Shown piece by piece: positions 13,654 through 32,000 of a stretch of 32,000 nt of DNA. The notes under the pieces are model-generated. The model was not told the DNA's origin, made no database searches, and saw only the letters and a program-made list of their open reading frames with translations. This DNA is from Chloroflexota bacterium (GTDB taxonomy: Bacteria > Chloroflexota > Ktedonobacteria > Ktedonobacterales > JACDGC01), in contig JAJYBV010000003.1 of the NCBI GenBank assembly GCA_021778805.1, positions 48,542 to 80,541 of the forward strand, written 5' to 3'. The position numbers were made by a program, and so were the translations under genes. Every line of letters begins with the position of its first letter. Positions within the stretch are counted from its first letter, which is position 1.

Positions 13654-13668
13654 CTTGGAGTACCGCAT

Positions 13669-14232: not shown

Positions 14233-14244
14233 AGAGGAAGCAGC

Positions 14245-14460: not shown

Positions 14461-14463
14461 ACT

Positions 14464-14964
14464 ATGGGACAATATGGATTCGTAACGCTGCAAGTTACCG
14501 GCGCAGCGGCAAAGCGGCGAAAATTTGCCACATGGGGCGAAACCATCCATTCGCTGGCGCCGGCGTGGGAATTGATAGCGGAAGATTTGCGGAATGACGC
14601 GGCAAATCAGTTTACGGCTGAAGGCGGCGTTTTTCGCACGGGCCACTGGGCGCCCCTTCGGCCGGCGACGGTAAAAGACCGGCAGCGCAAAGGTTACCCC
14701 GGCGCGCATCCCATTTTACAGCGCCGCGGCGATTTACTGCAATCGTTAACACAACAAGGCGCCACAGGGCACACCGAAGAAATAACCGCTACATCCTTAA
14801 CCTTTGGAACACGCTACCCAACCGCGGCGTTTCATCAATTTGGCACACGCAAAATGGCGGCGCGGCAAATTTTGGGTATTAGTTGGCAGCGGCAATCGGG
14901 TATTGTACAGCGGCTGAATGAATATATTCAGCAAACGATACGCGGGGCAGGATTGCAAGCATGA
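14464..14964 (+). CDS. virion morphogenesis protein (Mu gpG-like tail completion family)
   Basis: Motifs HWAPLRPATVKDRQRKGYPGAHPILQRRGDLLQSLT and AAFHQFGT are typical of this family. Confidence 0.7.
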   Translation: MGQYGFVTLQVTGAAAKRRKFATWGETIHSLAPAWELIAEDLRNDAANQFTAEGGVFRTGHWAPLRPATVKDRQRKGYPGAHPILQRRGDLLQSLTQQGATGHTEEITATSLTFGTRYPTAAFHQFGTRKMAARQILGISWQRQSGIVQRLNEYIQQTIRGAGLQA

Positions 14965-15449
14965 TAAAAAAACTTGGCGCGGCGGCGCAAACTGCGCTGG
15001 CAAATACGCTGAACACAAACATCAACACGCAAATAGACGCCGTAGCGGCAGCCTGGAATGATGGTATTCCGCTGCCGCATATTACAAACATTTATGCCGG
15101 CTACCGCACCGTCATCGGGGAGTATCCCGCTATTGTGGTGAACGCACAAAAAGGGAAACAAACCGCCAATGGCGCATCCCTTTGGGCTGAAATAGACCAT
15201 ATTGTTGAAATTACCGTCATTGTTCAAGCTGACGACGCGCCAACACTCGACGCGCAAATACAGCGATACTTGGTGGCCATTTGGCAAGTTCTTATGCAAA
15301 ATCAGCAGCTTGACGGCTCACTAAGCGGATTAGCGGGCGTAGACCCGATGGAATATGGCCGCAGCGGCATGTACCCGCTGGAAAAATCGACGCTGCTTAT
15401 GGAAGCCGCTGCCTGGAGTGTAACAGTGCATGTAATTGAAAGCGTATAA
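14961..15449 (+). CDS. neck / tail-terminator candidate (by position)
   Basis: 162 aa, ATGA overlap with the upstream gene. Confidence 0.45.
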   Translation: MIKKLGAAAQTALANTLNTNINTQIDAVAAAWNDGIPLPHITNIYAGYRTVIGEYPAIVVNAQKGKQTANGASLWAEIDHIVEITVIVQADDAPTLDAQIQRYLVAIWQVLMQNQQLDGSLSGLAGVDPMEYGRSGMYPLEKSTLLMEAAAWSVTVHVIESV

Positions 15450-15474
15450 CATCAAAAAATAAGGAGCTGCAGAT

Positions 15475-16734
15475 ATGCCGATAACTGCGATTCGCGAGAA
15501 TCAATATTATATTGGGTTGGGAAAACAAACCGGATGGGGCGTTCCCTCTGCGAGTACAAATATATTTTGGCGCTGGTTAGATGGAACAGACGCCAACCCG
15601 GAAATAAAGATGCAGCAAGAATACCAAGGGGATACGCTGCCATTTGAAACGCTCATCTACAAAGAGAGCCAGCATTGGGTTATTAAGGTAAAAGAATACG
15701 CGCGGCCAATTACCGCCGGCTTTGCCCTGCATGCGCTGCTGGGGTCATATTCCGATTCGTATATGGCGCCCATTGCGCAAACCAGTTTGTCTCTTGGCGT
15801 TGGGCCGGGCGCCACCAGCATAGAAGTTGCCGCAAACTTGGGAAATTTGGGAACCCTTGCTGTCATGCTGGATGCAGGCTTAGTAACTACGGGAACACCC
15901 GAAGTGGTTACCCTGAATTTAGCCAGCGTAACCGGAGCCGGACCCTATACCTACACCTTAAGCACTGGCGCCGTGCAAAATATGCACCTAAGCAACGCCG
16001 CTGTTATCAGCGCGAGCACGCATACCCTTACCCGCCAGCCACTAACGTATGATCCGTATACCATCTTCACATCATTTAACGCCGCCGGCAATCTTGAATT
16101 CGATATCCAAGATTGCGCCTGTGTAGAAATGAAAATTACCGGCGAAAAAGGCAAACCGATAGTGTTGGAGCATACATGGTATGGCTCGCTGGCCACTAAG
16201 AATTCCACCCTGTCATCTCCCTTTTTTGAAGGACAAAATGTGATTGGTTCGCCGGGGTCGCCGTTTCTGTTTTACCAAGGCGCCGCAAATTGGCTGGTAG
16301 ATGGTTTATCGACAGGCAACGCCCTAACGGTAACGAAATTTGAAATCGACATTAAAAATTCTACGGGCGCGGAAGATATGCAAAGTGAAGCGCTGAACCC
16401 CAATTATTTTCTGCCGGGCAACGCAAAAATAACGGGAACCATTTCCGTTTTGTTTCAAAATTACAACCAATACCTTGAAACGTATTTTGGCGGAACAGCC
16501 AATACCCAAGATAGCTATTTAGTGGGTTTAGGCTCTTTCAACGCTAAATTTGTGTCAGACCCCATTGATAGCTTGGCGCTTGGGCTGCCTTACGTAAACT
16601 ATACTGCCGCAAAAATTACCCCCAAACTGGATGGTAAGCCATTGCCGCAAAATTTGGTGTTTACGGCGTCGGCGCCATTGGCAAACGCCGTTCCATTTAC
16701 GGCGACCCTCACCAATACGAATGGGAGATATTAG
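15475..16734 (+). CDS. major tail protein
   Basis: 419 aa, AAGGAG RBS, immediately upstream of the chaperone pair and tape measure gene. Confidence 0.65.
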   Translation: MPITAIRENQYYIGLGKQTGWGVPSASTNIFWRWLDGTDANPEIKMQQEYQGDTLPFETLIYKESQHWVIKVKEYARPITAGFALHALLGSYSDSYMAPIAQTSLSLGVGPGATSIEVAANLGNLGTLAVMLDAGLVTTGTPEVVTLNLASVTGAGPYTYTLSTGAVQNMHLSNAAVISASTHTLTRQPLTYDPYTIFTSFNAAGNLEFDIQDCACVEMKITGEKGKPIVLEHTWYGSLATKNSTLSSPFFEGQNVIGSPGSPFLFYQGAANWLVDGLSTGNALTVTKFEIDIKNSTGAEDMQSEALNPNYFLPGNAKITGTISVLFQNYNQYLETYFGGTANTQDSYLVGLGSFNAKFVSDPIDSLALGLPYVNYTAAKITPKLDGKPLPQNLVFTASAPLANAVPFTATLTNTNGRY

Positions 16735-16739
16735 CGCAC

Positions 16740-17162
16740 ATGGCAGATGGAATAAATTTCGACACAATTGTAGAACAGCGCTATACCTTTACCAAAAATG
16801 GGAAAAGCTATGAGCTGAGCGACGCCATACCCGCGGATGTTATGATTGAAGGTTTGGCGCTGAAAAACGCAATGGACCAAGTAACGCGCGGTGGGCAGCA
16901 GGAAGAACAGCTGCTGAAATTACAAGAGCTGCAGCGGCTATCTACCAACATTGCGTTAAAAATATTTCAGCGCAGTGTGCCGGAGATGACGGCGCTGCTG
17001 CTGGAAGAAACATTTGATATTGATGAGCGGCTGCAAATTATTGCTTTTTTTTTGAGCCACCCTGGCAAAAAGTATGCCATGCGGCAGAACACTTTGAATC
17101 AGAAACCGCAGGCGCCATCGACGCAGCAGATATACCGCAAGCGACCGAATCGGCGCAGCTAG
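16740..17162 (+). CDS. tail assembly chaperone (gpG-like)
   Basis: 140 aa, located between the major tail and tape measure genes. Confidence 0.7.
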   Translation: MADGINFDTIVEQRYTFTKNGKSYELSDAIPADVMIEGLALKNAMDQVTRGGQQEEQLLKLQELQRLSTNIALKIFQRSVPEMTALLLEETFDIDERLQIIAFFLSHPGKKYAMRQNTLNQKPQAPSTQQIYRKRPNRRS

Positions 17163-17365
17163 ATGTAGTAGCCGTCATTGAGGCGATGAGTGAGCATTTT
17201 CACGAACATCACCGCGAAATTGTGGCGTTTAGCTGGAAGCTGTTCTGCGCAAAGTGGGCGCGGCTGTTAGATTGGACTGCAAAAGAGGTAGTTCGGCGCG
17301 CCAATGAGCAGCAGGAACGCGAATTTGAAAAACTGCGCAATGCGCATGAAATGCGAGGTATGTAA
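16740..17365 (+). CDS. tail assembly chaperone frameshift product (gpGT-like), -1 shift on the T-run 17045-17053
   Basis: The -1 frame is open from 17045 to TAA 17363-17365, which abuts the tape measure GTG start. In-frame heptamer T TTT TTT at 17045-17051. Confidence 0.6.
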
Positions 17366-19480
17366 GTGGGCGACGATGTATTTGTAACCATCGGCGGCAA
17401 TAGTATGCCGCTGCAAGACGCCATTGCCGGCGCAGAAGATAGTTTGCGTGGCTTTCAGGAACAGGCAAGCGTTAGCGGTGATACGCTGAATGAAACCGGC
17501 GGCGCGCTGGATGGATTTGGCGGCCGCGTTCAGGGATTGATTGGGCACTTGGGGCAATTAGCCACCCATTTTTTAACCACGTGGGCAGCCATTGAAACAT
17601 GGCAGGGGCTAAACCAAATTACCGGATATGTGCATAATTTTGCCAACGAAATGATCCAGTTAAATATTCAAACTGAAAAAAATGTGAATAGCTGGCAATA
17701 TCTCTTTGGCAGCCAACAAACTGCGCAGCAGCTTTCCAGCTGGACACAGCAGGAAAGCATTCATTTGCCCTTCACCCGGCAAGATTTAATGGGCGCCGTT
17801 TCCGCGCTGGGTTCTAAGCTTTCGGCGCAGCAAGTAGAACAATTTATTCCAACGCTTGGTGATCTTACAGCAACCCTTGGCGCGTCGGCGTTTGGCGGCC
17901 AAGGTCTTTCCCTGCAGCAGGCAGCGCTTGCGGTGATTGATATGATGGAAGGCCGCAGTATGATGCTGAAGCAGGAGATGAAGATAGATCCGGCTCAACT
18001 GGTGCAATATGGTTTAGACGCCACCGTCAGCAAATCCGGCGCCGTCTCCGTACACGACCCGAACACGCTGATTGGCGCGCTAGAGGCGTTTTCAAAACAG
18101 CGCGGGCTTGCCGGGGCAGCAGCGCAAACCAGCACCGATACATTTTGGGGCGCATGGTCGAGTATGGTGGATAGATTCCAAAATTTAGAGCTTGCCACTG
18201 GCAGCAGCCCATTTGCGGTTTTGAAAACCGATTTAAACGCGATTGCCGCGTGGTGGGACGCGCACCAAGGAATGATTACCCAGCTAGCTGATAGCATAGG
18301 AACCACCTTAGCCACTGGCCTGCAGGCCGCCGGAAACGGCGCCCAAGCGTTTGCTGAAGGCTTTGCAGGAATACAAACCAACTCTTCGGTGTTTGGCGCT
18401 CTGGGGGCGTTGGTAAAAAGTATTGGCTCCGACGCCGGCAGCCTATTCAGCGGTTTAGGGCAGGGGCTTACAAACGGCTCTGCAATGCATGGATTAAGCA
18501 CGGTCATAAGCAAAATCGGCGCGATATTAGCAAATCCGCTGGTGAAAAATGGCGTTCAGGCAATAGGGGAACTGCTCGGCTTTTCGCTCGGCGCCGGATT
18601 AAACAGCGCGGCGCTTATCGTTACACTCATTCAATCTGCCCTGCAATGGCTTACTCAGCACGCCGCGGCAACACAAGCGTTTGAGTATTTTTTAATTGCG
18701 TTGGCAGGCGTAATAACAGCCTCCCTTGTGCCGGCGTTTGCGGCATGGGCTATTGGCGCTACGGCGGCGGCAATTGCGCAAGCGGCCGCGCTATTGCCCA
18801 TATTAGCCATTGCCGCCGCTATTGCCGCATTGGCGCTGGGCATAGACGCCTTAGTTACCCATTGGAGCCAAATTTCTGAGTTTTTAGGCGCGCAATGGAA
18901 TCGCTTTACGGCGTGGCTTGCCGGATTGCCCAGCGCTATTTCTACCGGACTGCAAACCATTTGGAACACACTGTATGCATGGATCATCTCATTGGGAACC
19001 GATATGGCGCAATGGGGAGATGATATGATGCAAAACTTTATCAATGGCATTACCGGCGGAGCCGCGCGGCTATGGAATGCGGTTACTGGCGTAGCCGGCC
19101 AAATTGCCAGCGTGTTTCAGCACTCTACCCCGGCGCAAGGGCCACTGGCCGGCGATGATATGTGGATGAGCCATATGATCCAAAGTTTTGAAGATCAGCT
19201 GACGAATGGAATTCCCATCATTGCGCGCGCGTCGGTATCGGTAGGTTCTGCCATCCAAAGCGGCATTGTTGGGCAGCAAAGCAGCGCCGGCGTGGCGTCA
19301 ACCTACAGCAGCGCCTACACCACAACCTATGGCGCTACCGCAAATACGCTGCATGTATATGCGCAGAACGACACGCACATAGAACGAGTGGTGCGCAGTG
19401 TTTTGGCAGATACAAACCGGCAAGGAAATTATATGCTGCGCCGCGCCGGCGGCTTTGCAAATTTTGGGGGAATTGGATGA
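17366..19480 (+). CDS. tape measure protein
   Basis: 704 aa, GTG start after GAGGT, Ala/Gly/Leu-rich with hydrophobic central segment, canonical position. Confidence 0.85.
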   Translation: MGDDVFVTIGGNSMPLQDAIAGAEDSLRGFQEQASVSGDTLNETGGALDGFGGRVQGLIGHLGQLATHFLTTWAAIETWQGLNQITGYVHNFANEMIQLNIQTEKNVNSWQYLFGSQQTAQQLSSWTQQESIHLPFTRQDLMGAVSALGSKLSAQQVEQFIPTLGDLTATLGASAFGGQGLSLQQAALAVIDMMEGRSMMLKQEMKIDPAQLVQYGLDATVSKSGAVSVHDPNTLIGALEAFSKQRGLAGAAAQTSTDTFWGAWSSMVDRFQNLELATGSSPFAVLKTDLNAIAAWWDAHQGMITQLADSIGTTLATGLQAAGNGAQAFAEGFAGIQTNSSVFGALGALVKSIGSDAGSLFSGLGQGLTNGSAMHGLSTVISKIGAILANPLVKNGVQAIGELLGFSLGAGLNSAALIVTLIQSALQWLTQHAAATQAFEYFLIALAGVITASLVPAFAAWAIGATAAAIAQAAALLPILAIAAAIAALALGIDALVTHWSQISEFLGAQWNRFTAWLAGLPSAISTGLQTIWNTLYAWIISLGTDMAQWGDDMMQNFINGITGGAARLWNAVTGVAGQIASVFQHSTPAQGPLAGDDMWMSHMIQSFEDQLTNGIPIIARASVSVGSAIQSGIVGQQSSAGVASTYSSAYTTTYGATANTLHVYAQNDTHIERVVRSVLADTNRQGNYMLRRAGGFANFGGIG

Positions 19481-22071
19481 CGTATTTCACGACGTTGCAG
19501 GTGTGCAGTTTTAACGCTATCACCCAAACGTACACCACGGTGTTTGACCTGAATAATCTAACATCGACCTTTTTAACGGCTACCAAGATGGATCAGCCGC
19601 AAAAAGCCATTGCGCGCGGCTTTAATATGCGCACGCCGGGTGAGTATATATCGAAACAGCAGTATAAAAATCGGCACATACAGGCCAGCGTAAACATTCG
19701 GGGCGCAAACACAACCGCGCTGCTGGCAACCGTGCGCAGCCTGATTGCGGCGATAGAGCAGCCGCCCTATTATTTAAAAGTGCAGCTGCCTTCCGGCGCA
19801 CAATATAGCTACATTCAAGTGCGCGCCGTAACCTACACCATTCCATCCGACACAATGGCCATATTGGCCGGCGCGCTGCATACAATAAGCATAGATTTTG
19901 AGTGCGATCCCTTCTTTTTAGGTGATTGGGTAACATTGCAAAATGTATTGATGAACCCCGGTTTTGAAGCGCCGGCCACAAACCCCGTTACCGTTTTTCT
20001 GGACGCGCTGAATAACGCCGATGCGTATACGGTTGCGCTGGGCACAGCGCCAAGCGTTTCAGCCAACGCTATGACGATACCAGTAAGCACGTGCTTAACC
20101 TTTGGCTCACCAGCGTGGCGCAGCGGCATTTGGACGTTTTTATTTACCGCCGCAAGCGGAATGGATATGGTGTTTGGCGCTAATTTTACGAATATCTCTA
20201 ATTTGCTTGGTGTTACCCTTACCCAAACTTCGTTTAATGTTACACAAATTATCAATGGTATTAATGACACCGCGCAAACTGCCGCTATCAGCCTGACGGC
20301 CGGCGCCGAATATTGGCTGCAAGTATACGAGTTTCCGGTGTTTAATGGGGCGCCGGCGCAAATTACCGCAACACTATACACCAATAACAGCGGCAATTTA
20401 GGAACGCAAGTGGCAACGATTACCGGAATGAGCTTTATAGCGGCGTATAGCGGCCTTTCGTGCTTGTGGAACCGCGCTGGCTCTCAAACACTCGTTATAG
20501 GCGCCACTGGTGTTTCTGGCAGTGTGCAGCTGTTTGGCCCCGGCGGATGGTGGTGGAATGGCGGATCGGGCAGCGTAGGAATCTGCGCCGGCGCCTGGGA
20601 ACAAACAGTTGCCAATACATTTTCCGGCGGCCCGGTTAGCTCCTTAGGCGCATTTCGGATAGAGCTGCCGGCGTCGGGCATGTGGATGTGCACCCTAACC
20701 AACGCAAACCTTGCGTCGGCAGCGCAAATTGCGGCAACAGCCTCGCCGGTTGCCCCGAATATGGAATATTCCCTATCGTTTTGGATGCTGGCGCCGAATG
20801 TTGGCAATAATTGTTATATCGAATCGGTGGTGAATTTGTACGATATCAGCGGCAACTATATTTCCAGTATCGTCTTAACAGAACAATTGGGGAAAACTGC
20901 GGCATGGCGCCAAACCGTAGCGTCGTATACAACCCCTTCAAACGCCTATTATTGCGCCTTCCAGATTGAAATGTTTGATAGCGTATCAGCTGAATCACCC
21001 AGCGCAACCATTTGGATAGATAATGGGCAGATGTATGCTGGCGCGGCAAACAGCGTGCCCTATTGCGAGTTGCGTTTTCCGGCTGGCCCCGCGCAGCTGC
21101 TGGTTAGCGGTCTGCTAGGAGATGTTGCCGCGCCGGGCACATTGGCTATTGGCGGTTTGCCGGCAGGCGGTTCGCTGCAGCCCAATAGTATTTTTACGGC
21201 GTATGTCGGGCGGCGGCAATATGCAGCGCAGCAAACGCGCATTATTACCCCTGCGCTGTGTACATCGCAAGATGGTTTTTTGCAGCAGCAAATGGCGTAT
21301 CCATCTGCATTGGGCGGCTATATCGCGGCGTTTGCCGGCGCGTCGTCTAATTATTCCGCAGTATTCGTTCCGGCTTCCTTGCAGGAATACACGGGCACAT
21401 ATCATCTGTTTTGCCGCGCGCTGATGCAAGATTCAACCTATAGCACCCGAACCCTGCAAGGGGGCGCCTATGAGGCAAAGAATTATTGGGGCGGCTCGCC
21501 GCAGCAGATTTTGGGATTGGCGCAAACCGCGGCGATCACCCCATTTACCGCGCAAAATACCTGGCAGATTATTGATTGCGGCGTTCTCACGCTGCCGCCA
21601 TTTCCAAAATCTGACCAAATTCAGCTTACGCACGTAGAGGGACTGCCATATGTGCAATCGACGAATGCGCAATTTGGCATGTGGGTGGATTGGCTGGCGC
21701 TGCTGCCGGTGGAAACCGAATTGATTGCGCTGACGTTTCAAAATCCTGCATCCAGCAGCGCCGTGAGCGGGTGGGTGTGGCTGTATGTGGATGGCTCGCA
21801 GCCTACGCAAAAAAGTGTGAGCTGGAGCATAGAGGTTACTGCCGCGCCGAATATGCAATTAAGCGGCGGCGGCCCGGGAACCATGCAGCAAACCAGCCCC
21901 AGTGTTATTGCCACCGCAGATGAATCGCTGCTGCTAGACCCCACCATTACGACGCCAAGTGGTATCAGTGGGGTAAATCAATATATTGCGTTTATCAGCG
22001 ACAGCGCCGCGAATGTATTGAATGTTGTTTGCGAGCTGGGATACGCGCCGCGCTATCTTTACCCGAGGTGA
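19477..22071 (+). CDS. large distal tail / tail-tip structural protein with carbohydrate-binding-like middle region
   Basis: 864 aa, ATGA overlap with the tape measure stop. Confidence 0.6.
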   Translation: MTYFTTLQVCSFNAITQTYTTVFDLNNLTSTFLTATKMDQPQKAIARGFNMRTPGEYISKQQYKNRHIQASVNIRGANTTALLATVRSLIAAIEQPPYYLKVQLPSGAQYSYIQVRAVTYTIPSDTMAILAGALHTISIDFECDPFFLGDWVTLQNVLMNPGFEAPATNPVTVFLDALNNADAYTVALGTAPSVSANAMTIPVSTCLTFGSPAWRSGIWTFLFTAASGMDMVFGANFTNISNLLGVTLTQTSFNVTQIINGINDTAQTAAISLTAGAEYWLQVYEFPVFNGAPAQITATLYTNNSGNLGTQVATITGMSFIAAYSGLSCLWNRAGSQTLVIGATGVSGSVQLFGPGGWWWNGGSGSVGICAGAWEQTVANTFSGGPVSSLGAFRIELPASGMWMCTLTNANLASAAQIAATASPVAPNMEYSLSFWMLAPNVGNNCYIESVVNLYDISGNYISSIVLTEQLGKTAAWRQTVASYTTPSNAYYCAFQIEMFDSVSAESPSATIWIDNGQMYAGAANSVPYCELRFPAGPAQLLVSGLLGDVAAPGTLAIGGLPAGGSLQPNSIFTAYVGRRQYAAQQTRIITPALCTSQDGFLQQQMAYPSALGGYIAAFAGASSNYSAVFVPASLQEYTGTYHLFCRALMQDSTYSTRTLQGGAYEAKNYWGGSPQQILGLAQTAAITPFTAQNTWQIIDCGVLTLPPFPKSDQIQLTHVEGLPYVQSTNAQFGMWVDWLALLPVETELIALTFQNPASSSAVSGWVWLYVDGSQPTQKSVSWSIEVTAAPNMQLSGGGPGTMQQTSPSVIATADESLLLDPTITTPSGISGVNQYIAFISDSAANVLNVVCELGYAPRYLYPR

Positions 22072-22078
22072 TGGATGT

Positions 22079-23551
22079 ATGCTGAAAAGCGGATTAAGTG
22101 TGTATTGCTATTCGTTAAGCAACCCGGTGCGCGCCATAAATTATACCCAGTATGTTACAAACCTGTCATTCACCACGGTAGCGCCGGGCGGCTTTGGGCA
22201 GGCAACCTGCACGATATTGCTGCCTGATAGCCGGGTATTTCATCCGGAACTTCAGATTTTTGCGCGCATGGCCATTATGGCGCAGCGCACGTGTGTTTTT
22301 ATCGGTGAAATTGCGGAGGCGCCCCTACTTAATTCAGATACGGAAGAGGGCATTTCTATTACCGCATTGGGGTTAGGCGCTACCTTGCGCGACGATCCGG
22401 AAGATGTAAGCTATTCGGCGCAAACCCCACTGCAAATTGTGAACGACCAATTTACGCGCCGCGCCGCATATTTGGTGATTGATCCGGATACGTCTGAGGT
22501 ATTTCCAGATCAGCCCAGCGCAACCTTCTCACCGGCGTATACAGGGCGCAATATGGAAGAGGTCATTGCGGATGTAGCCATTTTGGCTGGTGTATATAGT
22601 TGGGGAACCTGGGCGCACCCCACGCATGTAGACGCTTTAGGCTTTCCAACCGGGCAATTGACGGTGCGGAAAACCGATCGCGAAACCGTTGCGTATCAGG
22701 CAAGCATATCTGGCGGGGATAGTACGCGATACACCATTTCGCCGAGCATGGAACGCGCATACAATGTGATAGCAATAACGTTTAACGATGCTAGCCAAAC
22801 ACCGCCGGTTGGGACGGCGGTATATACGGATCCGCGGCTGAATGCGGATGGCAGCCAAGGCACAGCGCCATTTCGGCGGCGAAAATACAGCCGCGATATG
22901 ACGACGGTTTCAATGGTTTCAATGGCGCAGGCGCAGGCGATTGCGAACGCCTATGGCGCGCAGATGCAAAATATTTCAAATAAAGTGGAACTTACGCTGC
23001 GCAACCTGCAAAACGCCGATGGCGCGCCGATACCGCTTTGGATGGCGGCCGCAGATAAAAATATTGCGGTGCCAGAGTTAACGCCGCGCGGCGCTGCAAT
23101 TTCTGCAAGCTATACGCCGGGAACAAATCTGTTTTATATTGTGCAAACCACGTATACCGAAACCGCAACGGATATGAACGTGGTATTGGAATGCGATAAC
23201 TATATTGATACGGCAAACATGCAAATAGCGCGCTTGCAATTGGCGAGCGATGCGCTGGCGCGCAGTAAAACAACAACCGGCGCAGTGCAAACGTCGGGCG
23301 CGCCAGAAATTGGGTATTGCGGCCTATCGCTGCCGAGCATGGGCGCGGGGCAATCGGCCAGTATTGTTGTGCATTTTAAGACCATAATGAAGCATGTTCC
23401 AACCTCTATTACGCTGAACGCGGTGCAAACGGCAAATGTTTCCACAAGTAGCGCAAACAGCATGACAGCGTATGGATTCGTTCTAACGCTTACGGCGTTG
23501 GCAGCCGGCGCAATGACGTATTACGCAACATATACCACGGTAGGGAATTAG
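22079..23551 (+). CDS. tail-tip / receptor-binding structural protein
   Basis: ATG 22079 with GAGGTG 8 nt upstream (ORF track 22022..23551); 490 aa; last structural gene before lysis. Confidence 0.55.
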   Translation: MLKSGLSVYCYSLSNPVRAINYTQYVTNLSFTTVAPGGFGQATCTILLPDSRVFHPELQIFARMAIMAQRTCVFIGEIAEAPLLNSDTEEGISITALGLGATLRDDPEDVSYSAQTPLQIVNDQFTRRAAYLVIDPDTSEVFPDQPSATFSPAYTGRNMEEVIADVAILAGVYSWGTWAHPTHVDALGFPTGQLTVRKTDRETVAYQASISGGDSTRYTISPSMERAYNVIAITFNDASQTPPVGTAVYTDPRLNADGSQGTAPFRRRKYSRDMTTVSMVSMAQAQAIANAYGAQMQNISNKVELTLRNLQNADGAPIPLWMAAADKNIAVPELTPRGAAISASYTPGTNLFYIVQTTYTETATDMNVVLECDNYIDTANMQIARLQLASDALARSKTTTGAVQTSGAPEIGYCGLSLPSMGAGQSASIVVHFKTIMKHVPTSITLNAVQTANVSTSSANSMTAYGFVLTLTALAAGAMTYYATYTTVGN

Positions 23552-23554: not shown

Positions 23555-23908
23555 ATGACGGGAACCCGAACGTATAACGCGGCGCCGCGGCTGCAAACGA
23601 TAGAATCGCAATTAGAAACCAATGCGTCGCAAATAGCGTCGTTAACAGCGCAGGTAAGTAGGTTAACCGATATTATGGAGAAATTAACGACAACGGCAGC
23701 GGCGCACGCCACGCATATAGACAACTTGCGCGAAGAAAACCGACGGATATCCCAAGCGCTCGATTCGTTAAATGGCGTCGCGGCGCAGCGCCAAAACCAA
23801 ACCAACGGACAATTATTTCAGGCGTCTATTTCGGGGGCGCAAATGCTGATGACGGTGGTTTGGATTGTGATAGGGTATTTATTAAGCTGGGCGCTGACTC
23901 AAAAATAG
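23555..23908 (+). CDS. XhlA-type holin-associated membrane protein
   Basis: 117 aa, N-terminal coiled coil and single C-terminal TM segment (MLMTVVWIVIGYLLSWAL), directly upstream of the lysin. Confidence 0.55.
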   Translation: MTGTRTYNAAPRLQTIESQLETNASQIASLTAQVSRLTDIMEKLTTTAAAHATHIDNLREENRRISQALDSLNGVAAQRQNQTNGQLFQASISGAQMLMTVVWIVIGYLLSWALTQK

Positions 23909-23929: not shown

Positions 23930-24694
23930 ATGGATGACGTTAACAAAGAAAAATGCGGCGAGGTGGCAGGCCGCGCGGCGCTGATTATTGGGAATGAATG
24001 CGAATTTTGGGGCATACAAGAATTTGTTGCGGCGGCGCGGTGGGCAAAGGCGCATGGGATAGACACGATCAACCCAAAGCGCGCCAATGGAGCGGATCGT
24101 TGGTATAAGAAGGCGGCGCAGTTAGCAGAAGAATACCGCGCGGTAACAGCCGAAGGGGTGGGCTATATTCCATTTGGTTATGTTTACACGCTGCCGCGAT
24201 GCTATGGCATGGGGTATATAGAGGCGCAGGCAGAGCTGATGATAGAGATGCAGCGCACAATTGGCGCCCTGCAGCCCGATACTATTGGCTGGGTTATGGC
24301 AGATATGGAGGTGGAAATGAATGGCAGATTAGATTGCGCGGAGTGTTTTACGCAATTATTGGCGCCGGGCCGCGATTTGCTGTTTGTAACCAGTTGGGCC
24401 GATCCGCGAGAGCAAAATTGGCTGGGTGTGCTGAACATTTTGCGGAACTGTTTGAACTGCTTTCTGCCGCAAGCGTATAACGATTGGCTGGAAAGCAGAG
24501 AATATGCGGAGTTGCCGCAAGATATGTGCATACAAACGATGATTGACCTGACGCAGGAGTTTGGGGCAAATCAACAAATAGCTATTGCACAAGCGGCAAA
24601 GGCGCATGGGCAAACAACAATATGGATGTGGGAATATCAGGCGGCGCTGCGAAACCCCGCGTTGGTAGATGAGCTAGTGAGGGAAATGCTATAA
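23930..24694 (+). CDS. putative endolysin (glycoside-hydrolase-like; family uncertain)
   Basis: 254 aa, last phage gene after the holin-like gene, AAGGA RBS; assignment mostly positional. Confidence 0.45.
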   Translation: MDDVNKEKCGEVAGRAALIIGNECEFWGIQEFVAAARWAKAHGIDTINPKRANGADRWYKKAAQLAEEYRAVTAEGVGYIPFGYVYTLPRCYGMGYIEAQAELMIEMQRTIGALQPDTIGWVMADMEVEMNGRLDCAECFTQLLAPGRDLLFVTSWADPREQNWLGVLNILRNCLNCFLPQAYNDWLESREYAELPQDMCIQTMIDLTQEFGANQQIAIAQAAKAHGQTTIWMWEYQAALRNPALVDELVREML

Positions 24695-24697
24695 AAT

Positions 24698-24730
24698 AGG
24701 TGGTTGTTTCTATAATGGAAACAACCACCT
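24698..24730. terminator. perfect 13-bp hairpin, candidate bidirectional terminator at the phage-array junction
   Basis: AGGTGGTTGTTTC-TATAATG-GAAACAACCACCT; followed by TTTC on the plus strand and by ATTTTAT on the minus strand; its last 2 nt are the first 2 nt of CRISPR repeat 1. Confidence 0.55.
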
Positions 24731-27700
24731 TTCAGTATCCTCAACGGATCGAATGGCAATGAAACATATGCAACGATTTATTGCAGTTCAACCCTTTGTC
24801 ACCTTTCAGTATCCTCAACGGATCGAATGGCAATGAAACGGCTATTTTCAGCACCAGTCACCAGTCCAGGCGCTACCTTTCAGTATCCTCAACGGATCGA
24901 ATGGCAATGAAACCGCAAGGCTTAGCCTTGTGTAACCCGCAACAGGCAACCTTTCAGTATCCTCAACGGATCGAATGGCAATGAAACAGCGATTGCTGGC
25001 GCTGACCGAATTTACCAAGCAAATTCTCCTTTCAGTATCCTCAACGGATCGAATGGCAATGAAACTGCGCGATTGCGCAAGCGCAGGAATACCGGGACGA
25101 TCCTTTCAGTATCCTCAACGGATCGAATGGCAATGAAACGTCATCGTCACAAATAATCCATACAACCAATTATCCGCCTTTCAGTATCCTCAACGGATCG
25201 AATGGCAATGAAACACTCCGCAATTATGGAGAAACGTTTTTAATCCGTCACTTTCAGTATCCTCAACGGATCGAATGGCAATGAAACATAGTCTGACACA
25301 ACGCTGCGCAATCGCGCAAGCGCCTTTCAGTATCCTCAACGGATCGAATGGCAATGAAACTGCGGCAGACTTTGCCGCAAACGGCTACCCTGAAACTTTC
25401 AGTATCCTCAACGGATCGAATGGCAATGAAACATTTCCGAATCAGAATTGTCCTGCTCCTGCACCGCCTTTCAGTATCCTCAACGGATCGAATGGCAATG
25501 AAACTAACGACAATGGCAAAATATGATGTAACTTTCAAATGCTTTCAGTATCCTCAACGGATCGAATGGCAATGAAACTCACGCGCTGCGCGCGGCGCGG
25601 CGTGATCGGCACAATCTTTCAGTATCCTCAACGGATCGAATGGCAATGAAACGTTACAGCGCGTTACATCGCGATACATCGCGTTACACTTTCAGTATCC
25701 TCAACGGATCGAATGGCAATGAAACCGACGCGAGACATTCAAATCTACGACAACATCCACAGCTTTCAGTATCCTCAACGGATCGAATGGCAATGAAACA
25801 CCCTATTTGTATGAGCAATTTGGGAAATACGAACCTTTCAGTATCCTCAACGGATCGAATGGCAATGAAACACCACTGCTCTGAAAATATCACAGATTAT
25901 TCTTTCAGTATCCTCAACGGATCGAATGGCAATGAAACATATAGTTTCTCCCCGCGAATGAGAAACGAACGACCTTTCAGTATCCTCAACGGATCGAATG
26001 GCAATGAAACATATGACCCCAACGACGTGGTCGCGGCGCGGCCCCCCTTTCAGTATCCTCAACGGATCGAATGGCAATGAAACCTCGAACCAGATGGCTA
26101 CGTAGTCATCCGGATTTTTGCTTTCAGTATCCTCAACGGATCGAATGGCAATGAAACTTACATCAGTAATCTAAATAATCCCTATCCCCTCGCCGCTTTC
26201 AGTATCCTCAACGGATCGAATGGCAATGAAACAACGAAAGTAAATACGTTGCCTGATTCAACGCTTCGATCTTTCAGTATCCTCAACGGATCGAATGGCA
26301 ATGAAACATCAACAGTATTTCGTTCTGTCTGTAGGCGTCGAGCTTTCAGTATCCTCAACGGATCGAATGGCAATGAAACTTTCATGTATCCGTTGATGAT
26401 GTGTTGCACGCTGCTCTTTCAGTATCCTCAACGGATCGAATGGCAATGAAACTTAGTCCAGTCATTGACGAATGCCGCAAAAACAGAGATCCTTTCAGTA
26501 TCCTCAACGGATCGAATGGCAATGAAACGCAGCATGGGAAATAGTAACTATGTCATTTTTTTTTTCCTTTCAGTATCCTCAACGGATCGAATGGCAATGA
26601 AACAGCATTCATCCCTCCATATCCATCACTGCTGCGAATATCTTTCAGTATCCTCAACGGATCGAATGGCAATGAAACACTAATGCCAGTAAACCGGCTG
26701 ATTGACGCAATACCTTTCAGTATCCTCAACGGATCGAATGGCAATGAAACAAATTGTTACCGTTACGAGTCCCGCGACGGGATCATCTTTCAGTATCCTC
26801 AACGGATCGAATGGCAATGAAACCCACCGTAGAAAGCCGCGCGGGATACTAACTCACACACCTTTCAGTATCCTCAACGGATCGAATGGCAATGAAACAT
26901 AGATGTCATATACGTATTCGCTATATTGACGCCACTTTCAGTATCCTCAACGGATCGAATGGCAATGAAACTCATCTGACCTCATCGCCATGGATTGTTA
27001 ATTCCACGACCTTTCAGTATCCTCAACGGATCGAATGGCAATGAAACATCGGGAATCTGCTACGATCCGCGGTATGGATCCAGCTTTCAGTATCCTCAAC
27101 GGATCGAATGGCAATGAAACGCCGGTACTATCTGCTGCATACGTAAAATTGCTAAACTTTCAGTATCCTCAACGGATCGAATGGCAATGAAACAACAAAT
27201 ATCGATAATTTACAACTAGTCCTGCAATCCTTTCAGTATCCTCAACGGATCGAATGGCAATGAAACTGACCAGCGCCATTTCCGAGATACCCACGAATCC
27301 GGTCTTTCAGTATCCTCAACGGATCGAATGGCAATGAAACAGTAACAACTTGTGCAATCCTGCATAGGTGTACGTAGCTTTCAGTATCCTCAACGGATCG
27401 AATGGCAATGAAACCTGCCGAGCAGCTGTACCACGAATACCTGCAGAAGTCTTTCAGTATCCTCAACGGATCGAATGGCAATGAAACGTAGAGCACCTTT
27501 AGAACAAAGGTGCGTTAGGATAAACTTTCAGTATCCTCAACGGATCGAATGGCAATGAAACCAGATTTTCCCGCATTAGTCCCTACGTACACCTATGCCT
27601 TTCAGTATCCTCAACGGATCGAATGGCAATGAAACGTGTCGTTATGCTTGCCATGTTAGCCTCCAGTGTGATCTTTCAGTATCCTCAACGGATCGAATGG

Positions 27701-30700
27701 CAATGAAACTTCATGGGGTATGAACGGAATGCACCGTTCATTACCACTTTCAGTATCCTCAACGGATCGAATGGCAATGAAACTTGCACTATCCAGCTGC
27801 CACATGCACCGCATGAGCTCTTTCAGTATCCTCAACGGATCGAATGGCAATGAAACACGTACACTTATGCAATCCTGCATAAGTTGTTACTAGCTTTCAG
27901 TATCCTCAACGGATCGAATGGCAATGAAACAGTGTCGTTATGCTTGCCATGTTAGCCTCCAGTGTGATCTTTCAGTATCCTCAACGGATCGAATGGCAAT
28001 GAAACAGCTTTTGCGGTGAGTATGGGATCGTGATACTCAACTTTCAGTATCCTCAACGGATCGAATGGCAATGAAACGTACACTTATGCAGGATTGCACA
28101 AGTTGTTAGTAGCTTTCAGTATCCTCAACGGATCGAATGGCAATGAAACTCCAGATGTCAGCCTACAGCTCAATACATTAAAGAACTTTCAGTATCCTCA
28201 ACGGATCGAATGGCAATGAAACCAGCCTCAGACTGAGACGCTGTTTGACCTTCTGAATCTTTCAGTATCCTCAACGGATCGAATGGCAATGAAACAAAAT
28301 CGCTCAAATTTGCATTCTGGCGCCAACGATTTCTTTCAGTATCCTCAACGGATCGAATGGCAATGAAACTGAACAGCCTGTCGAGCACTATTTAAATACG
28401 CCAGATCTTTCAGTATCCTCAACGGATCGAATGGCAATGAAACTTCGCCATTTATCCTAACGCACCTAGGCTAGAAAATCCTTTCAGTATCCTCAACGGA
28501 TCGAATGGCAATGAAACATACACCAAGCATAGCTACTTCTTATGCTGAAGAATCTTTCAGTATCCTCAACGGATCGAATGGCAATGAAACATTGCAGCAG
28601 ATTGCATCCTAGTCATTCTAGGCATTTTCCTTTCAGTATCCTCAACGGATCGAATGGCAATGAAACCGGAATCGATTCCGATATAACGCCAGCCAGTCAT
28701 AGACTTTCAGTATCCTCAACGGATCGAATGGCAATGAAACCGAAGCGTAAAACACGTTCAGAACATCTCCATACGGAACTTTCAGTATCCTCAACGGATC
28801 GAATGGCAATGAAACAAGATTGCCAGCTGTATACGCGCTTACCGCTGACGCCTTTCAGTATCCTCAACGGATCGAATGGCAATGAAACTAGAATGACTAG
28901 GATGCAATCTGCTGCAATGCAGCCTTTCAGTATCCTCAACGGATCGAATGGCAATGAAACGTATACGCAGCTGAAATCATCGACTGCCCAAGTTATGCTT
29001 TCAGTATCCTCAACGGATCGAATGGCAATGAAACCTACTAACAACTTATGCAATCCAGCATAAGTGTATGAACTTTCAGTATCCTCAACGGATCGAATGG
29101 CAATGAAACGATATGCTACATGCGCAAACACGGCTGCGACCGAAGCTTTCAGTATCCTCAACGGATCGAATGGCAATGAAACGCAACTGTAGCATTGTAG
29201 CGCGAAAAGTTTATTCAGCCTTTCAGTATCCTCAACGGATCGAATGGCAATGAAACCCATTCGACGGATGATTGCAGATGCTGAAACGCATCCTTTCAGT
29301 ATCCTCAACGGATCGAATGGCAATGAAACGAATACTGCGGGTGAGCTGTCCGATACACCTGCCATCTTTCAGTATCCTCAACGGATCGAATGGCAATGAA
29401 ACAATGGGACGAATCTGCTCAACATGACGAACAGCATTCCTTTCAGTATCCTCAACGGATCGAATGGCAATGAAACCCAAATGACGCGCTTTCTATGGCA
29501 TCATTGGAGGCTTAGCTTTCAGTATCCTCAACGGATCGAATGGCAATGAAACATCTGGCGATTTCTAAATCGCCAGAAAATTGTTCCTCTTTCAGTATCC
29601 TCAACGGATCGAATGGCAATGAAACTCGCTGAACGCGCAGGGTTTATTGTTCTATTAAAAACTTTCAGTATCCTCAACGGATCGAATGGCAATGAAACAG
29701 CTATGGGAACACCTCCACCGTCAAACCCGCCACCCTTTCAGTATCCTCAACGGATCGAATGGCAATGAAACTTGACAAGGTCGTTGCTGATGTTCGGCGT
29801 CAATTGCCTTTCAGTATCCTCAACGGATCGAATGGCAATGAAACGAAGCGATTCGGCTCCTGTATTTTGCGCTGGAGCATGACTTTCAGTATCCTCAACG
29901 GATCGAATGGCAATGAAACTTCCCGCAGTTACTGTTCCTTGTGTAGCGCGCTGAACCTTTCAGTATCCTCAACGGATCGAATGGCAATGAAACGGTTAAT
30001 GCAACACTTCCAGCCGGAAGGGTGATACTAGCTTTCAGTATCCTCAACGGATCGAATGGCAATGAAACCATTCTCCGTTACAGATAGAGCCTGCTGAACA
30101 CATTCCTTTCAGTATCCTCAACGGATCGAATGGCAATGAAACTTTTGAGGAGGCATTAAAAATGCCTAGAAGAATGACGCTTTCAGTATCCTCAACGGAT
30201 CGAATGGCAATGAAACTTGGAATCCACTGACAGGTTGTGATAAGATCAGCACACTTTCAGTATCCTCAACGGATCGAATGGCAATGAAACACACGTATTG
30301 ATAGAAGTAAAGATAGCGTCAGTTGCCCTTTCAGTATCCTCAACGGATCGAATGGCAATGAAACCATTGATATAACTCCTTAAAATTCGTTGTAATGCAG
30401 CTTTCAGTATCCTCAACGGATCGAATGGCAATGAAACTGACGCGATTGCCGGTGATCACCTCGCCGAGAAATCTTTCAGTATCCTCAACGGATCGAATGG
30501 CAATGAAACTAGCGCTGCTGGAGTGCATCGCTGATCGTGAATGTGCTTTCAGTATCCTCAACGGATCGAATGGCAATGAAACGTCTTCGGGACGCAGCGA
30601 ATCTGTTGCGGATCGTGTCTTTCAGTATCCTCAACGGATCGAATGGCAATGAAACACTCGATCCGCTCCTGCAACGGGACACCACCGAAGTCTTTCAGTA

Positions 30701-32000
30701 TCCTCAACGGATCGAATGGCAATGAAACGTGAACCATGCACCAGCAGATGAAAAATGCCGGATCTTTCAGTATCCTCAACGGATCGAATGGCAATGAAAC
30801 TGCAACGAAACGCGGCGCAGTGGAAGAACTATTAGTGCTTTCAGTATCCTCAACGGATCGAATGGCAATGAAACACGATTTCGCGAACGCATCCATCTCA
30901 CATCAGCAGACTTTCAGTATCCTCAACGGATCGAATGGCAATGAAACTTATGATCTCACCATCCTGATTCTCTCGCTAGAGACTTTCAGTATCCTCAACG
31001 GATCGAATGGCAATGAAACAACATGGAGAAACTGTCCGGCGCAACTGCGCAGAAACTTTCAGTATCCTCAACGGATCGAATGGCAATGAAACCTGGGCGC
31101 TTCAACTGCGGGTCACGCGCCTCAATGAGCTTTCAGTATCCTCAACGGATCGAATGGCAATGAAACAAATAGCGCACGCCGTCTCACATAGTTGCCCCCG
31201 CGAACTTTCAGTATCCTCAACGGATCGAATGGCAATGAAACGAACCAGAGAAAATGCACACGAAAATACAAACTAATCCTTTCAGTATCCTCAACGGATC
31301 GAATGGCAATGAAACATAAACGATTCATTATCGAGCGCGAATCGCGATTTTATCCTTTCAGTATCCTCAACGGATCGAATGGCAATGAAACTTTGCAGCG
31401 AAATTTGCCCGATACCGGCGCCGGGTCTTTCAGTATCCTCAACGGATCGAATGGCAATGAAACGTATTTCCGCCGCGAGCCAGGTTTTTCCGGCGCCGGT
31501 CCTTTCAGTATCCTCAACGGATCGAATGGCAATGAAACCTATGAATATGAGATATACATCTCACAAAAAAATTTCTTTCAGTATCCTCAACGGATCGAAT
31601 GGCAATGAAACCGACGTGCTCGCGCGGAGGGGGGTTGCGCCGGAAGGCTTTCAGTATCCTCAACGGATCGAATGGCAATGAAACATCGCGCGCCGCCGGC
31701 GGCGCGATTTTTACCACGAGCCTTTCAGTATCCTCAACGGATCGAATGGCAATGAAACGTGTTCGCGACACCCGTTTGCACCCGCGCCCCGGCCTTTCAG
31801 TATCCTCAACGGATCGAATGGCAATGAAACGCCCATTTGATATTCATTGCAGCATTTTCGTCTCTGTCTTTCAGTATCCTCAACGGATCGAATGGCAATG
31901 AAACCCAACAGCATTCCCAGTCCTGGGGAGTGCTTGACAACTTTCAGTATCCTCAACGGATCGAATGGCAATGAAACCGCAGTGCGCTCCGCAAATACCC
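24729..32000 (-). CRISPR. CRISPR array, 99 identical 37-nt repeats and 98 complete spacers (30-41 nt, mostly 35-38), continuing past the window end; class 1-like repeat; minus-strand transcription inferred with modest confidence
   Basis: Repeat CTTTCAGTATCCTCAACGGATCGAATGGCAATGAAAC counted by hand at 24729, 24803, 24877 ... 31941. All ORF-track proteins here are repeat translations (SILNGSNGNET, LSVSSTDRMAMK, FQYPQRIEWQ). Orientation comes from PAM-side anchoring of overlapping spacers, see findings. Confidence 0.98.

What the first reader, a model, noticed from the sequence alone, without database searches (positions are those of the whole stretch)
24692..24765. Seamless junction: the array starts inside the terminator hairpin of the phage lysin gene
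The lysin stop is at 24692-24694 and repeat 1 starts at 24729. The 34-nt gap is almost entirely one perfect 13-bp hairpin, whose 3' arm runs 2 nt into repeat 1. There is no AT-rich leader or trailer, no degenerate terminal repeat and no space for an att site. The loop-proximal part (TATAATGGAAAC) echoes the GAAAC-ending tails of the phage repeat-like units. The visible phage block is only about 21 kb, small for a siphovirus with a 704-aa tape measure. It lacks integrase, repressor and early regulators, so the element may continue beyond the array. Option 1: the array is cargo of the prophage, placed after the lysis cassette. Small prophage-borne arrays are known at this position in Clostridioides difficile phages. 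An array of 99 or more repeats (over 7.2 kb) would then be exceptional for a temperate tailed phage. Option 2: the phage end recombined exactly at the terminal repeat of a host array. The repeat is AT-richer than the phage, like the host flank, which weakly favours a host origin.
Basis: partly seen in the sequence, partly recalled or inferred. Interest (0 to 1): 0.85.

Follow-up and report, generated by a model that had tools for sequence, protein, structure and literature searches.

The report
Giant CRISPR array inside a prophage
The junction is the far (oldest) end of a CRISPR array of at least 99 repeats that sits inside a complete, roughly 38-kb prophage of a Ktedonobacteria bacterium and is still gaining spacers, which makes it far larger than any array reported so far in a small temperate phage.

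Summary
The lysin stop is at 24692-24694. A perfect 13-bp hairpin spans 24698-24730. The first of 99 identical 37-nt repeats starts at 24729. At least five independent assemblies carry the same junction.

The reading needs correcting. Relatives of this repeat family show that the array is transcribed on the minus strand. So 24729 is the trailer (old) end, and the array ends here. The hairpin has its T-run on the minus strand, so it fits a terminator for the CRISPR transcript, perhaps a bidirectional one.

Linked contigs supply the missing leader end. A 296-nt AT-rich leader with a strong promoter lies beside phage genes: a type IV restriction enzyme, repressor, RecT, excisionase and integrase. 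The integrase abuts an intact tRNA-Arg. The closest relative has the empty site. The array therefore lies between the two att copies, so it is phage cargo (Option 1); Option 2 is refuted.

Strains share the old spacers but differ at the leader end, so acquisition is ongoing. The prophage carries no cas genes. A related repeat sits next to a type I-B-like cas operon. Packaging into virions is untested.

The parts
3239..3288 (-). Left att core: the 3' 50 nt of tRNA-Arg(GCG), a displaced partial copy. It marks the left boundary of the prophage.
   Evidence: Rfam tRNA hit at 3241-3301, while ARAGORN finds no whole tRNA. Homology to the empty site L009 stops at 3288. The 50-nt core is identical in the intact tRNA of L009, L090 and L121-125. 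Logan k=31 contigs L008 and L089 stop exactly 30 nt into the core from either side.
3383..3409 (.). A 27-nt motif (TCCAACGTCGTCAAAATCGTCGTCAAT-like) that also lies on the other side of the core next to the intact tRNA. It is a candidate integrase arm-type site.
   Evidence: 26/27 match to the tail of L090/L121-125 in the same orientation.
3427..4398 (+). Replication initiator / DnaD-like loader. It is the first phage gene after the att site.
   Evidence: PHROGs phrog_3926 and phrog_10469. All 14 contigs that carry it show the same integrated context.
5863..23551 (+). Late region: terminase large subunit 5863-7179, Mu-type portal 7641-9131, Mu-like protease/scaffold 9783-11801, major capsid 12351-13334, tail completion protein 14464-14964, tape measure 17366-19480, and distal tail proteins 19477-23551.
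   Evidence: PHROGs and Pfam. Precomputed Pfam. The capsid protein is related to BcepMu, phiE255 and RcapMu, whose genomes are 36-45 kb.
23555..23908 (+). Lysis-associated protein: a coiled coil with a C-terminal transmembrane helix (XhlA-like architecture, judged from the sequence).
   Evidence: Translation; weak match to phrog_37502.
23930..24694 (+). Probable endolysin, the catalytic-domain-only form, full length.
   Evidence: No Pfam, PHROG or PDB match. 191 homologues exist, and many are single-domain proteins of 239-264 aa whose homology reaches residues 250-253 of this protein. 11 of 30 relatives carry a C-terminal LysM domain. In L102 the homologue sits next to a holin-like gene.
24698..24730 (-). 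A 13-bp hairpin: an intrinsic terminator at the trailer end of the array, placed between the convergent lysis operon and the CRISPR transcript.
   Evidence: It is scored as a terminator on the minus strand only.
24729..32000 (-). CRISPR array: 99 identical 37-nt repeats and 98 complete spacers plus 23 nt of a 99th. It is transcribed right to left as GTTTCATTGCC...CTGAAAG, with the trailer at 24729 and the leader beyond 32000.
   Evidence: Orientation comes from L114 (cas operon and degenerate distal repeats), from L111, L116 and L117 (degenerate terminal repeat), from the L118 leader promoter, and from this array's own leader.
31242..31278 (-). Spacer 89. It is the leader-proximal (newest) spacer in strain GCA_027399335.1, so spacers 90-99 of the window are later additions.
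   Evidence: L131 reads leader, then spacers 89, 88 ... 80 in order.
29772..29807 (-). Spacer 69, the branch point of the ERZ27236853 lineage. That lineage has two different spacers between this one and the leader.
   Evidence: L134.
31831..31867 (-). Spacer 97, the only spacer with an identified target.
   Evidence: 37/37 match to L009 14108-14144. By my own reading of the sequence, this is the 3' end of a TnpB-like ORF at the contig end; no tool result supports that assignment.

Best explanation
The window shows the left two-thirds of a complete temperate phage integrated into tRNA-Arg(GCG) of a Ktedonobacteria bacterium.

The order, in window orientation, is as follows:
- aminotransferase (host)
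- att core (3239-3288)
- replication initiator
- packaging, head and tail genes
- lysis genes (to 24694)
- terminator hairpin
- CRISPR array of at least 99 repeats, transcribed leftwards
- 296-nt leader with promoter
- 368-aa gene
- type IV methyl-directed restriction enzyme
- 365-aa gene
- repressor
- cro-like gene, RecT, excisionase and integrase
- intact tRNA-Arg
- asparaginase (host)

The total is about 38 kb, of which about 19% is array.

The junction in the finding is the trailer end of the array. The array, the restriction enzyme and the repressor all read on the minus strand, as a lysogeny-expressed defence block. The lysis operon reads towards them on the plus strand. The 13-bp hairpin lies exactly between the two. 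It stops the long CRISPR transcript from running antisense into the late genes, and it may also end the lysis transcript.

The prophage has no cas genes. Processing, interference and the ongoing leader-end spacer uptake must therefore use host Cas proteins, probably from a type I-B-like system.

What is shown: the anatomy, the boundaries, the polarity and the strain-to-strain differences at the leader end. What is inferred: terminator function, use of host Cas, expression in the lysogen, and whether the phage is still inducible.
For: Boundaries.
- The closest relative, L009 (93% aa), has aminotransferase, intact tRNA-Arg and asparaginase with nothing between them.
- The window's homology to L009 stops at a 50-nt core.
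- In the same MAGs and samples, the asparaginase orthologue is followed by the intact tRNA and then a 398-aa tyrosine integrase.

Leader side.
- The integrase contigs run through excisionase, RecT, repressor and type IV restriction enzyme to a 296-nt AT-rich region and the exact repeat.
- A TTGCGA-17-TATAAT promoter with an extended -10 points into the array.

Same array.
- L131 (GCA_027399335.1) carries window spacers 89 to 80 in order after the leader.
- L134 carries two new spacers and then spacers 69 to 66.
- The same MAG also holds the trailer contig, which is 100% identical to window 15281-25865.

Polarity.
- In L114, a related repeat follows cas8-cas7-cas5-cas3-cas6 on the same strand as GTTTCA...GAAAG, and its distal repeats are degenerate.
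- The terminal repeats at the CTTTC end of L111, L116 and L117 are degenerate.
- L118 has a leader promoter.

Terminator.
- The hairpin meets the terminator criteria on the minus strand only.
- The fold has z = -5.6.

Other points.
- No spacer matches the prophage itself.
- The total size, about 38 kb, matches the genomes of phages with this Mu-type capsid.
Against: - No single contig spans the whole array from trailer to leader. The link rests on 10 and 4 consecutive shared spacers.
- In the window's own assembly (L133) and in L126, the leader-proximal repeat is followed by at least 173 nt of non-array DNA, probably an insertion. The right-hand end of the array in this strain is therefore unresolved.
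- One MAG contig (L002) joins spacer 7 to a truncated histidine-kinase gene, with no homology at the breakpoint.
- One variant (L125) has lost most of the integrase, so some copies may be defective.
- No host cas operon with this exact repeat was found, because the look-ups were exhausted.
- Terminator activity, crRNA production and packaging are untested.
- The perfect terminal repeat is unusual compared with relatives and is not explained.
Confidence: 0.87

Rival explanations
1. The array is inside the prophage, but the prophage is a grounded, domesticated remnant. The array is never packaged and simply behaves as a chromosomal array kept by the host.
For: The array is unusually large and takes up spacers like a host array. 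One variant has a truncated integrase (L125). An insertion lies next to the leader-proximal repeat in two assemblies. No circular attP junction was seen in the 14 contigs that carry the replication gene.
Against: All modules are present with long intact ORFs: integrase, excisionase, repressor, RecT, replication, terminase, portal, capsid, tail and lysis. The total of about 38 kb matches phages with the same capsid type. Both att cores are perfect 50-nt copies.
Confidence: 0.35
2. Option 2 of the first reader: a host chromosomal array became joined to the phage end by recombination, deletion or inversion at a repeat.
For: The terminal repeat is perfect, whereas relatives have degenerate ones. 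The repeat and the host flank have similar G+C, 43% against 42-46%.
Against: The leader end of the same array is flanked by phage lysogeny genes that run to the integrase and the tRNA att site. The empty site in L009 has no array within 6-8 kb. The lysin gene is full length.
Confidence: 0.04
3. The junction is an assembly chimera created by the repeats.
For: The contig ends inside the array. L002 shows an odd join.
Against: The identical junction occurs in at least six assemblies made by different methods.
Confidence: 0.01
4. The hairpin is only the terminator of the lysis operon, and its overlap with the repeat is coincidental.
For: It lies 3 nt after the lysin stop. An A-rich run precedes it, and TTT follows it on the plus strand.
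Against: On the plus strand the T-run criterion fails, while on the minus strand it is met. The array transcript arrives from the right.
Confidence: 0.15

Closest known systems
Prophage-borne orphan CRISPR arrays of Clostridioides difficile (phiCD630-1/-2, phiC2-like prophages; type I-B)
   Same: The arrays lie inside temperate prophages and have no cas genes of their own. They rely on host type I-B Cas proteins (PMC4556805; PMC4173771). The proposed role is exclusion of competing mobile elements.
   Different: The C. difficile prophages hold 7-24 spacers in 2-4 small arrays, located between xkdN and the tape-measure gene. Here there is one array of at least 99 repeats, about 19% of the genome. 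It lies between the lysis cassette and the lysogeny/defence genes, in a Chloroflexota host, and strains differ at the leader end.
CRISPR arrays of huge phages (Al-Shayeb et al. 2020)
   Same: These phage-encoded arrays often lack acquisition genes and share repeats with the host, so host Cas use is inferred (PMC7162821).
   Different: Those phages are larger than 200 kb and mostly lytic, with compact arrays (median six repeats). This is a temperate phage of about 38 kb with an array more than twice the mean size of class 1 host arrays (41 repeats).
Vibrio phage ICP1 type I-F CRISPR-Cas
   Same: A phage carries a working array that acquires spacers (from my own knowledge; titles).
   Different: ICP1 is lytic, encodes its own complete cas set, has short arrays and targets a host satellite.
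Chromosomal type I-B-like locus with a related repeat (L114, JGI metagenome)
   Same: The 37-nt repeat belongs to the same family (CTTTCAGTATCC...GAAAC). The array is packed tightly against flanking genes: the cas6 stop is 4 nt from the first repeat.
   Different: That array has the cas operon in cis and degenerate distal repeats, and it is not in a phage.

Membership tests
CRISPR array | Many identical direct repeats of 23-55 nt separated by unique spacers of similar length | tested here: met
   99 identical 37-nt repeats; spacers of 30-41 nt.
CRISPR array | AT-rich leader with a promoter at one end | tested here: met
   A 296-nt leader, 42% G+C, with TTGCGA-17-TATAAT pointing into the array, seen in L126 and L131-135. 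It lies outside the window.
CRISPR array | Polarised spacer gain: strains share trailer spacers and differ at the leader end | tested here: met
   Spacers 1-3, 1-6 or 1-15 are shared by all contigs that reach them. The leader-proximal spacers are spacer 89 in L131, two novel spacers then spacer 69 in L134, and novel spacers in L135.
CRISPR array | Spacers match mobile elements | tested here: inconclusive
   Only spacer 97 has a match: 37/37 to what I read as a TnpB-like ORF end in L009. There are no matches in 50,697 phage records.
CRISPR array | Adjacent cas genes | tested here: not met
   None were found anywhere in the prophage. A related repeat lies next to cas8/cas7/cas5/cas3/cas6 in L114.
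CRISPR array | Repeat matches a curated Rfam CRISPR-DR family | tested here: not met
   No CRISPR-DR hit for the array repeat at the gathering threshold or at E<=1.
Integrated temperate phage (tyrosine integrase, tRNA attachment site) | Direct repeat of the att core at both ends, one copy inside an intact tRNA | tested here: met
   A 50-nt core at 3239-3288 and in the tRNA-Arg of L090 and L121-125.
Integrated temperate phage (tyrosine integrase, tRNA attachment site) | Integrase next to the att site | tested here: met
   A 398-aa Phage_integrase protein whose stop is 20 nt from the tRNA. The HDLRH...Y motifs are present by my own reading of the translation.
Integrated temperate phage (tyrosine integrase, tRNA attachment site) | Empty site in a close relative | tested here: met
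   L009. It keeps a stretch of about 90 nt that resembles the phage arm.
Integrated temperate phage (tyrosine integrase, tRNA attachment site) | Excision and virion production | not testable with these tools
   No circular junction was seen among 14 contigs.
Intrinsic (Rho-independent) terminator | Stable stem-loop followed at once by a T-run on the transcribed strand | tested here: met
   Met on the minus strand: 13 pairs with the tail ATTTTATAGC. Not met on the plus strand.
Intrinsic (Rho-independent) terminator | Transcripts end there | not testable with these tools
   This needs 3'-end mapping.
Prophage-borne orphan array that uses host Cas (C. difficile kind) | Array inside the prophage boundaries and no cas genes in the prophage | tested here: met
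Prophage-borne orphan array that uses host Cas (C. difficile kind) | Host chromosome carries a cas operon, and arrays, with the same repeat | not tested
   Look-ups were exhausted. The exact repeat is absent from the species-representative genomes and from JGI metagenomes.
Phage endolysin (for ORF 23930-24694) | Recognised peptidoglycan-hydrolase catalytic domain | tested here: not met
   No Pfam, PHROG or PDB match to the catalytic part.
Phage endolysin (for ORF 23930-24694) | Cell-wall-binding domain fusions in relatives, and a place in a lysis cassette | tested here: met
   LysM in 11 of 30 relatives. A holin-like neighbour in L102. A membrane-anchored coiled-coil gene lies upstream.

The most novel reading that the evidence does not exclude
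The phage is fully active and packages the array of more than 7 kb. It would then be a transmissible library of about 100 immune memories that any host with a compatible type I-B-like system can use at once. The array would grow in each lysogen until the Mu-type head is full (about 38 kb). At the same time, the phage's four solitary repeat units of a different CRISPR family could act as RNA decoys against a second host system. The phage would thus exploit one CRISPR system while blunting another.
Probability: 0.25. Interest if true: 0.88.

Novelty: new member of a known kind. Interest (0 to 1): 0.7.

Why it matters
Phage-borne arrays are known, but they are small: a median of six repeats in huge phages and 7-24 spacers in C. 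difficile prophages. This array has at least 99 repeats and fills about a fifth of an ordinary-sized temperate phage. Strain comparisons show that it is still being extended at its leader. This implies that a prophage array can be a full substrate for host adaptation enzymes acting in trans. It also implies that large blocks of immune memory can sit on a mobile element, next to a restriction enzyme, in a lysogeny-expressed defence block. Two questions become testable: whether capsid capacity limits array growth, and whether lysogeny spreads CRISPR memory between strains. It is also one of the few phage-host systems described in any detail for Ktedonobacteria. The junction itself is ordinary once the polarity is known: a trailer end capped by a terminator between convergent transcription units.

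Tried and rejected
- Collection scans. Exact scans for the 37-nt repeat found nothing in IMG/VR, in the GTDB species representatives or in JGI metagenomes. Only a degenerate pattern worked.
- Searches for phage relatives. The lysin and the capsid protein found no relatives in IMG/VR. The array found no protospacers in 50,697 phage records.
- The tail of L002 beyond repeat 7. I followed it as a possible right flank. It is a truncated histidine kinase, and the native context of that gene has no array within 10 kb. There is no homology at the breakpoint. I set it aside as a chimera or a strain-specific rearrangement.
- The idea that the junction truncated the lysin, because its first two homologues have an extra C-terminal LysM part. 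I rejected this: many family members are 239-264 aa, and their homology reaches residues 250-253.
- A degenerate 'repeat 0' at 24661-24697 (18/37 matches). I rejected it as probably chance: p is about 0.03 and it overlaps conserved codons.
- Deletion or inversion models that would join a host array to a prophage remnant. I held these until and dropped them once the leader side proved to be phage DNA.
- Repeat-like sequence in the phage matching the array repeat. None was found at up to 11 mismatches.
- A second array at the end of the L002 contig. This was my own misreading; the sequence is the start of a DAHP synthase gene.
- Searching papers for the assembly prefix JAEHJW found nothing.
Full report
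**1. The observation.**

The coordinates are right. ORF 23930-24694 stops at TAA 24692-24694. Positions 24698-24730 form a perfect 13-bp stem with a 7-nt loop. The last two stem bases are the first two bases of repeat 1, which starts at 24729. The fold is far more stable than shuffled sequence: -28.3 kcal/mol, z = -5.6.

From 24729 to the end of the window there are 99 copies of CTTTCAGTATCCTCAACGGATCGAATGGCAATGAAAC, all identical, separated by spacers of 30-41 nt.

The junction is real. The same junction and the same first spacers occur in five assemblies from different samples. A sixth assembly is 100% identical over 15281-25865.

**2. Host and insertion site.**

The left flank is Ktedonobacteria (Chloroflexota). 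The closest relative is L009, at 93% amino-acid identity. It has aminotransferase, then 245 nt, then an intact tRNA-Arg(GCG), then asparaginase, with no phage and no array nearby.

The window's homology to L009 stops at 3288, inside the tRNA. Positions 3239-3288 are therefore a 50-nt att core, a displaced 3' tRNA fragment. Logan contigs built with k = 31 stop exactly 30 nt into this core from either side. That is the expected result if the core is present twice in the genome.

**3. The phage block.**

Positions 3427-24694 encode these products:
- a replication initiator
- the terminase large subunit
- a Mu-type portal
- a Mu-like protease/scaffold
- a major capsid protein related to BcepMu, phiE255 and RcapMu, whose genomes are 36-45 kb
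- a tail completion protein
- a tape measure protein
- distal tail proteins
- a coiled-coil protein with a C-terminal membrane helix
- the 254-aa protein

The 254-aa protein has no Pfam, PHROG or PDB match. It does belong to a family of 191 proteins. Eleven of 30 sampled members carry a C-terminal LysM domain. In the related phage L102, its homologue lies beside a holin-like gene and upstream of an integrase. 'Endolysin' is therefore a reasonable name.

The protein is not truncated. Many family members are 239-264 aa, and their homology reaches residues 250-253 of this protein.

**4. Polarity of the array.**

A degenerate pattern found related arrays in JGI metagenomes.
- In L114 a related repeat follows a WYL regulator, cas8, cas7 (DevR), a 232-aa ORF at the position expected for cas5 (no family match), cas3 and cas6 on the same strand. 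There it reads GTTTCA...CTGAAAG and starts 4 nt after the cas6 stop. The repeats far from cas6 are degenerate.
- In L111, L116 and L117 the terminal repeat at the CTTTC end is degenerate. In L111 that repeat touches the stop codon of a convergent gene.
- In L118 the flank at the other end carries a TTGTCA-16-TACAAT promoter.

The family is therefore transcribed as GTTTCA...GAAAG, which is the minus strand of the window. So 24729 is the trailer end.

The terminator scan agrees. The hairpin meets the criteria only on the minus strand, where the tail is ATTTTATAGC.

**5. The other end of the array.**

The exact asparaginase orthologue in the same MAGs (P0277, reached through its cluster) is followed by an intact tRNA-Arg and then a 398-aa tyrosine integrase.

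Contigs carrying that integrase run leftwards, in window orientation, through these features:
- an excisionase
- a 220-aa gene
- RecT
- a 157-aa gene
- a cro-like gene
- a repressor
- a 365-aa gene
- a type IV methyl-directed restriction enzyme (PADLOC, E = 6e-58)
- a 368-aa gene
- a 296-nt AT-rich region
- the exact repeat

The AT-rich region carries TTGCGA-17-TATAAT with an extended -10, pointing into the array.

In L131, which belongs to the same MAG as the trailer contig L120, the leader is followed by window spacers 89, 88 ... 80 in order. In L134 it is followed by two new spacers and then spacers 69, 68, 67, 66. In L135 it is followed by new spacers. This is one array. Its leader side is phage DNA that runs to the second att site.

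**6. What it is.**

This is a complete temperate phage of about 38 kb. The parts are 21.4 kb from the att core to the trailer, at least 7.3 kb of array, 0.3 kb of leader and 8.9 kb of lysogeny and early genes. The array lies between the lysis cassette and a block of minus-strand genes that includes a restriction enzyme and the repressor.

Option 2 is refuted.

Strains share the trailer spacers and differ at the leader, so the array is still acquiring spacers. The prophage encodes no cas gene, so host proteins must act in trans. That is also how the C. difficile prophage arrays work (PMC4556805). No spacer targets the prophage itself.

**7. How the junction works (inferred).**

Two transcription units converge at the junction: the late/lysis operon on the plus strand and the long CRISPR transcript on the minus strand. 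The hairpin sits exactly between them, with its T-run on the CRISPR side. It should end the CRISPR transcript and protect the late genes from antisense read-through. It may also act on the lysis transcript.

Tight packing against neighbouring genes is seen in other arrays of this repeat family: a 0-nt gap in L111 and a 4-nt gap in L114. The lack of spare sequence is therefore not anomalous.

The perfect terminal repeat differs from relatives and remains unexplained.

**8. Comparison with what is known.**

The kind is known: orphan arrays on prophages that use host type I-B Cas. What differs is scale and place.
- C. difficile prophages hold 7-24 spacers, located between xkdN and the tape-measure gene (PMC4173771).
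- Arrays of huge phages have a median of six repeats. Class 1 host arrays average 41 repeats (PMC7162821).

**9. Caveats.**
- No single contig spans the array from trailer to leader.
- In the window's own assembly (L133) and in L126, the leader-proximal repeat is followed by at least 173 nt of non-array DNA carrying the end of an ORF. This is probably an insertion.
- L002 joins spacer 7 to a truncated kinase gene.
- L125 lacks most of the integrase.
- Whether the phage is inducible, and whether the array is packaged, is unknown.

Noticed in passing
window 5512-5548, 5786-5822, 7177-7213, about 12288-12324 (+ strand): Four solitary 37-nt units lie in the phage late region. Each is a G+C-rich hairpin followed by GAGGATTGAAAC. 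Three of the four begin at or just after a stop codon. They match Rfam CRISPR-DR9 over its full length (E = 2.3e-07 and 0.002, below the gathering score), and this is a different repeat family from the array. They could be solitary repeat units of the RNA anti-CRISPR kind (PMC10651486), or processing or terminator sites.
   Followed up: partly
L126 1981-3576 (outside the window, leader side of the array): The prophage encodes a type IV methyl-directed restriction enzyme (PADLOC mREase_IV, E = 6e-58; Pfam Mrr_cat). It lies between the array leader and the repressor, on the same strand as both. This looks like a small lysogeny-expressed defence island.
   Followed up: partly
L126 1-173 and L133 7090-7111: In two assemblies, including the window's own, the leader-proximal repeat is followed directly by non-array DNA: at least 173 nt holding the last 31 codons of an ORF. 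No second repeat follows. This is probably an insertion into the array and a likely cause of the contig breaks.
   Followed up: partly
L002 11286-12686: In MAG GCA_027350185.1 the array stops 13 nt into spacer 7 and continues into a truncated HisKA_3 kinase gene, with no homology at the breakpoint. Six other contigs show that kinase intact in a different context. The join is either a real rearrangement or a chimera.
   Followed up: partly
window 31831-31867; L009 14108-14144: Spacer 97 matches, 37 of 37, what I read as the 3' end of a TnpB-like ORF at the end of the contig of the closest relative. That assignment is from my own reading of the sequence, with no tool result. The protospacer is flanked by CCG on one side and CGG on the other, so the same 5'-CCG would be read in either orientation.
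   Followed up: partly
window 27341-29072 (spacers 36, 39, 43, 46, 59), 27636-27968 (spacers 40 and 44), 28591-28923 (spacers 53 and 57): Several spacers sample the same targets. Five overlap one palindromic site on both strands. Two are duplicates offset by 1 nt. Two overlap on opposite strands. This is the pattern expected from repeated or primed acquisition against variants of one element.
   Followed up: no
L125 2839-3303: One variant has only the last 253 nt of the integrase arm next to tRNA-Arg, followed by unrelated DNA with a tRNA-Gly(TCC). Contigs L090, L121 and L122 all stop at the same point 139-140 nt past the tRNA. This suggests further variants at this site.
   Followed up: partly
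L009 6148-6237: The 'empty' site of the closest relative keeps about 90 nt that are 74% identical to the phage arm next to the integrase, including the 27-nt motif. This is a possible scar of an earlier related prophage.
   Followed up: no
window 4854-5401 and 5514-5831: The region between the replication and terminase genes shows tandem duplication with a 274-nt period. There are exact 107-nt copies at 4854-4960 and 5128-5234, and two of the solitary repeat units are also 274 nt apart.
   Followed up: no
window 23930-24694: The probable endolysin belongs to an undescribed family of about 190 proteins. The catalytic domain, about 250 aa, has no Pfam, PHROG or PDB match and is often fused to LysM.
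   Followed up: partly
window 3289-24728 compared with the flanks: The late region has 52% G+C. The host flanks have 42-46%, and the phage's own early/lysogeny region has 45%. The two halves of the phage differ in composition.
   Followed up: no
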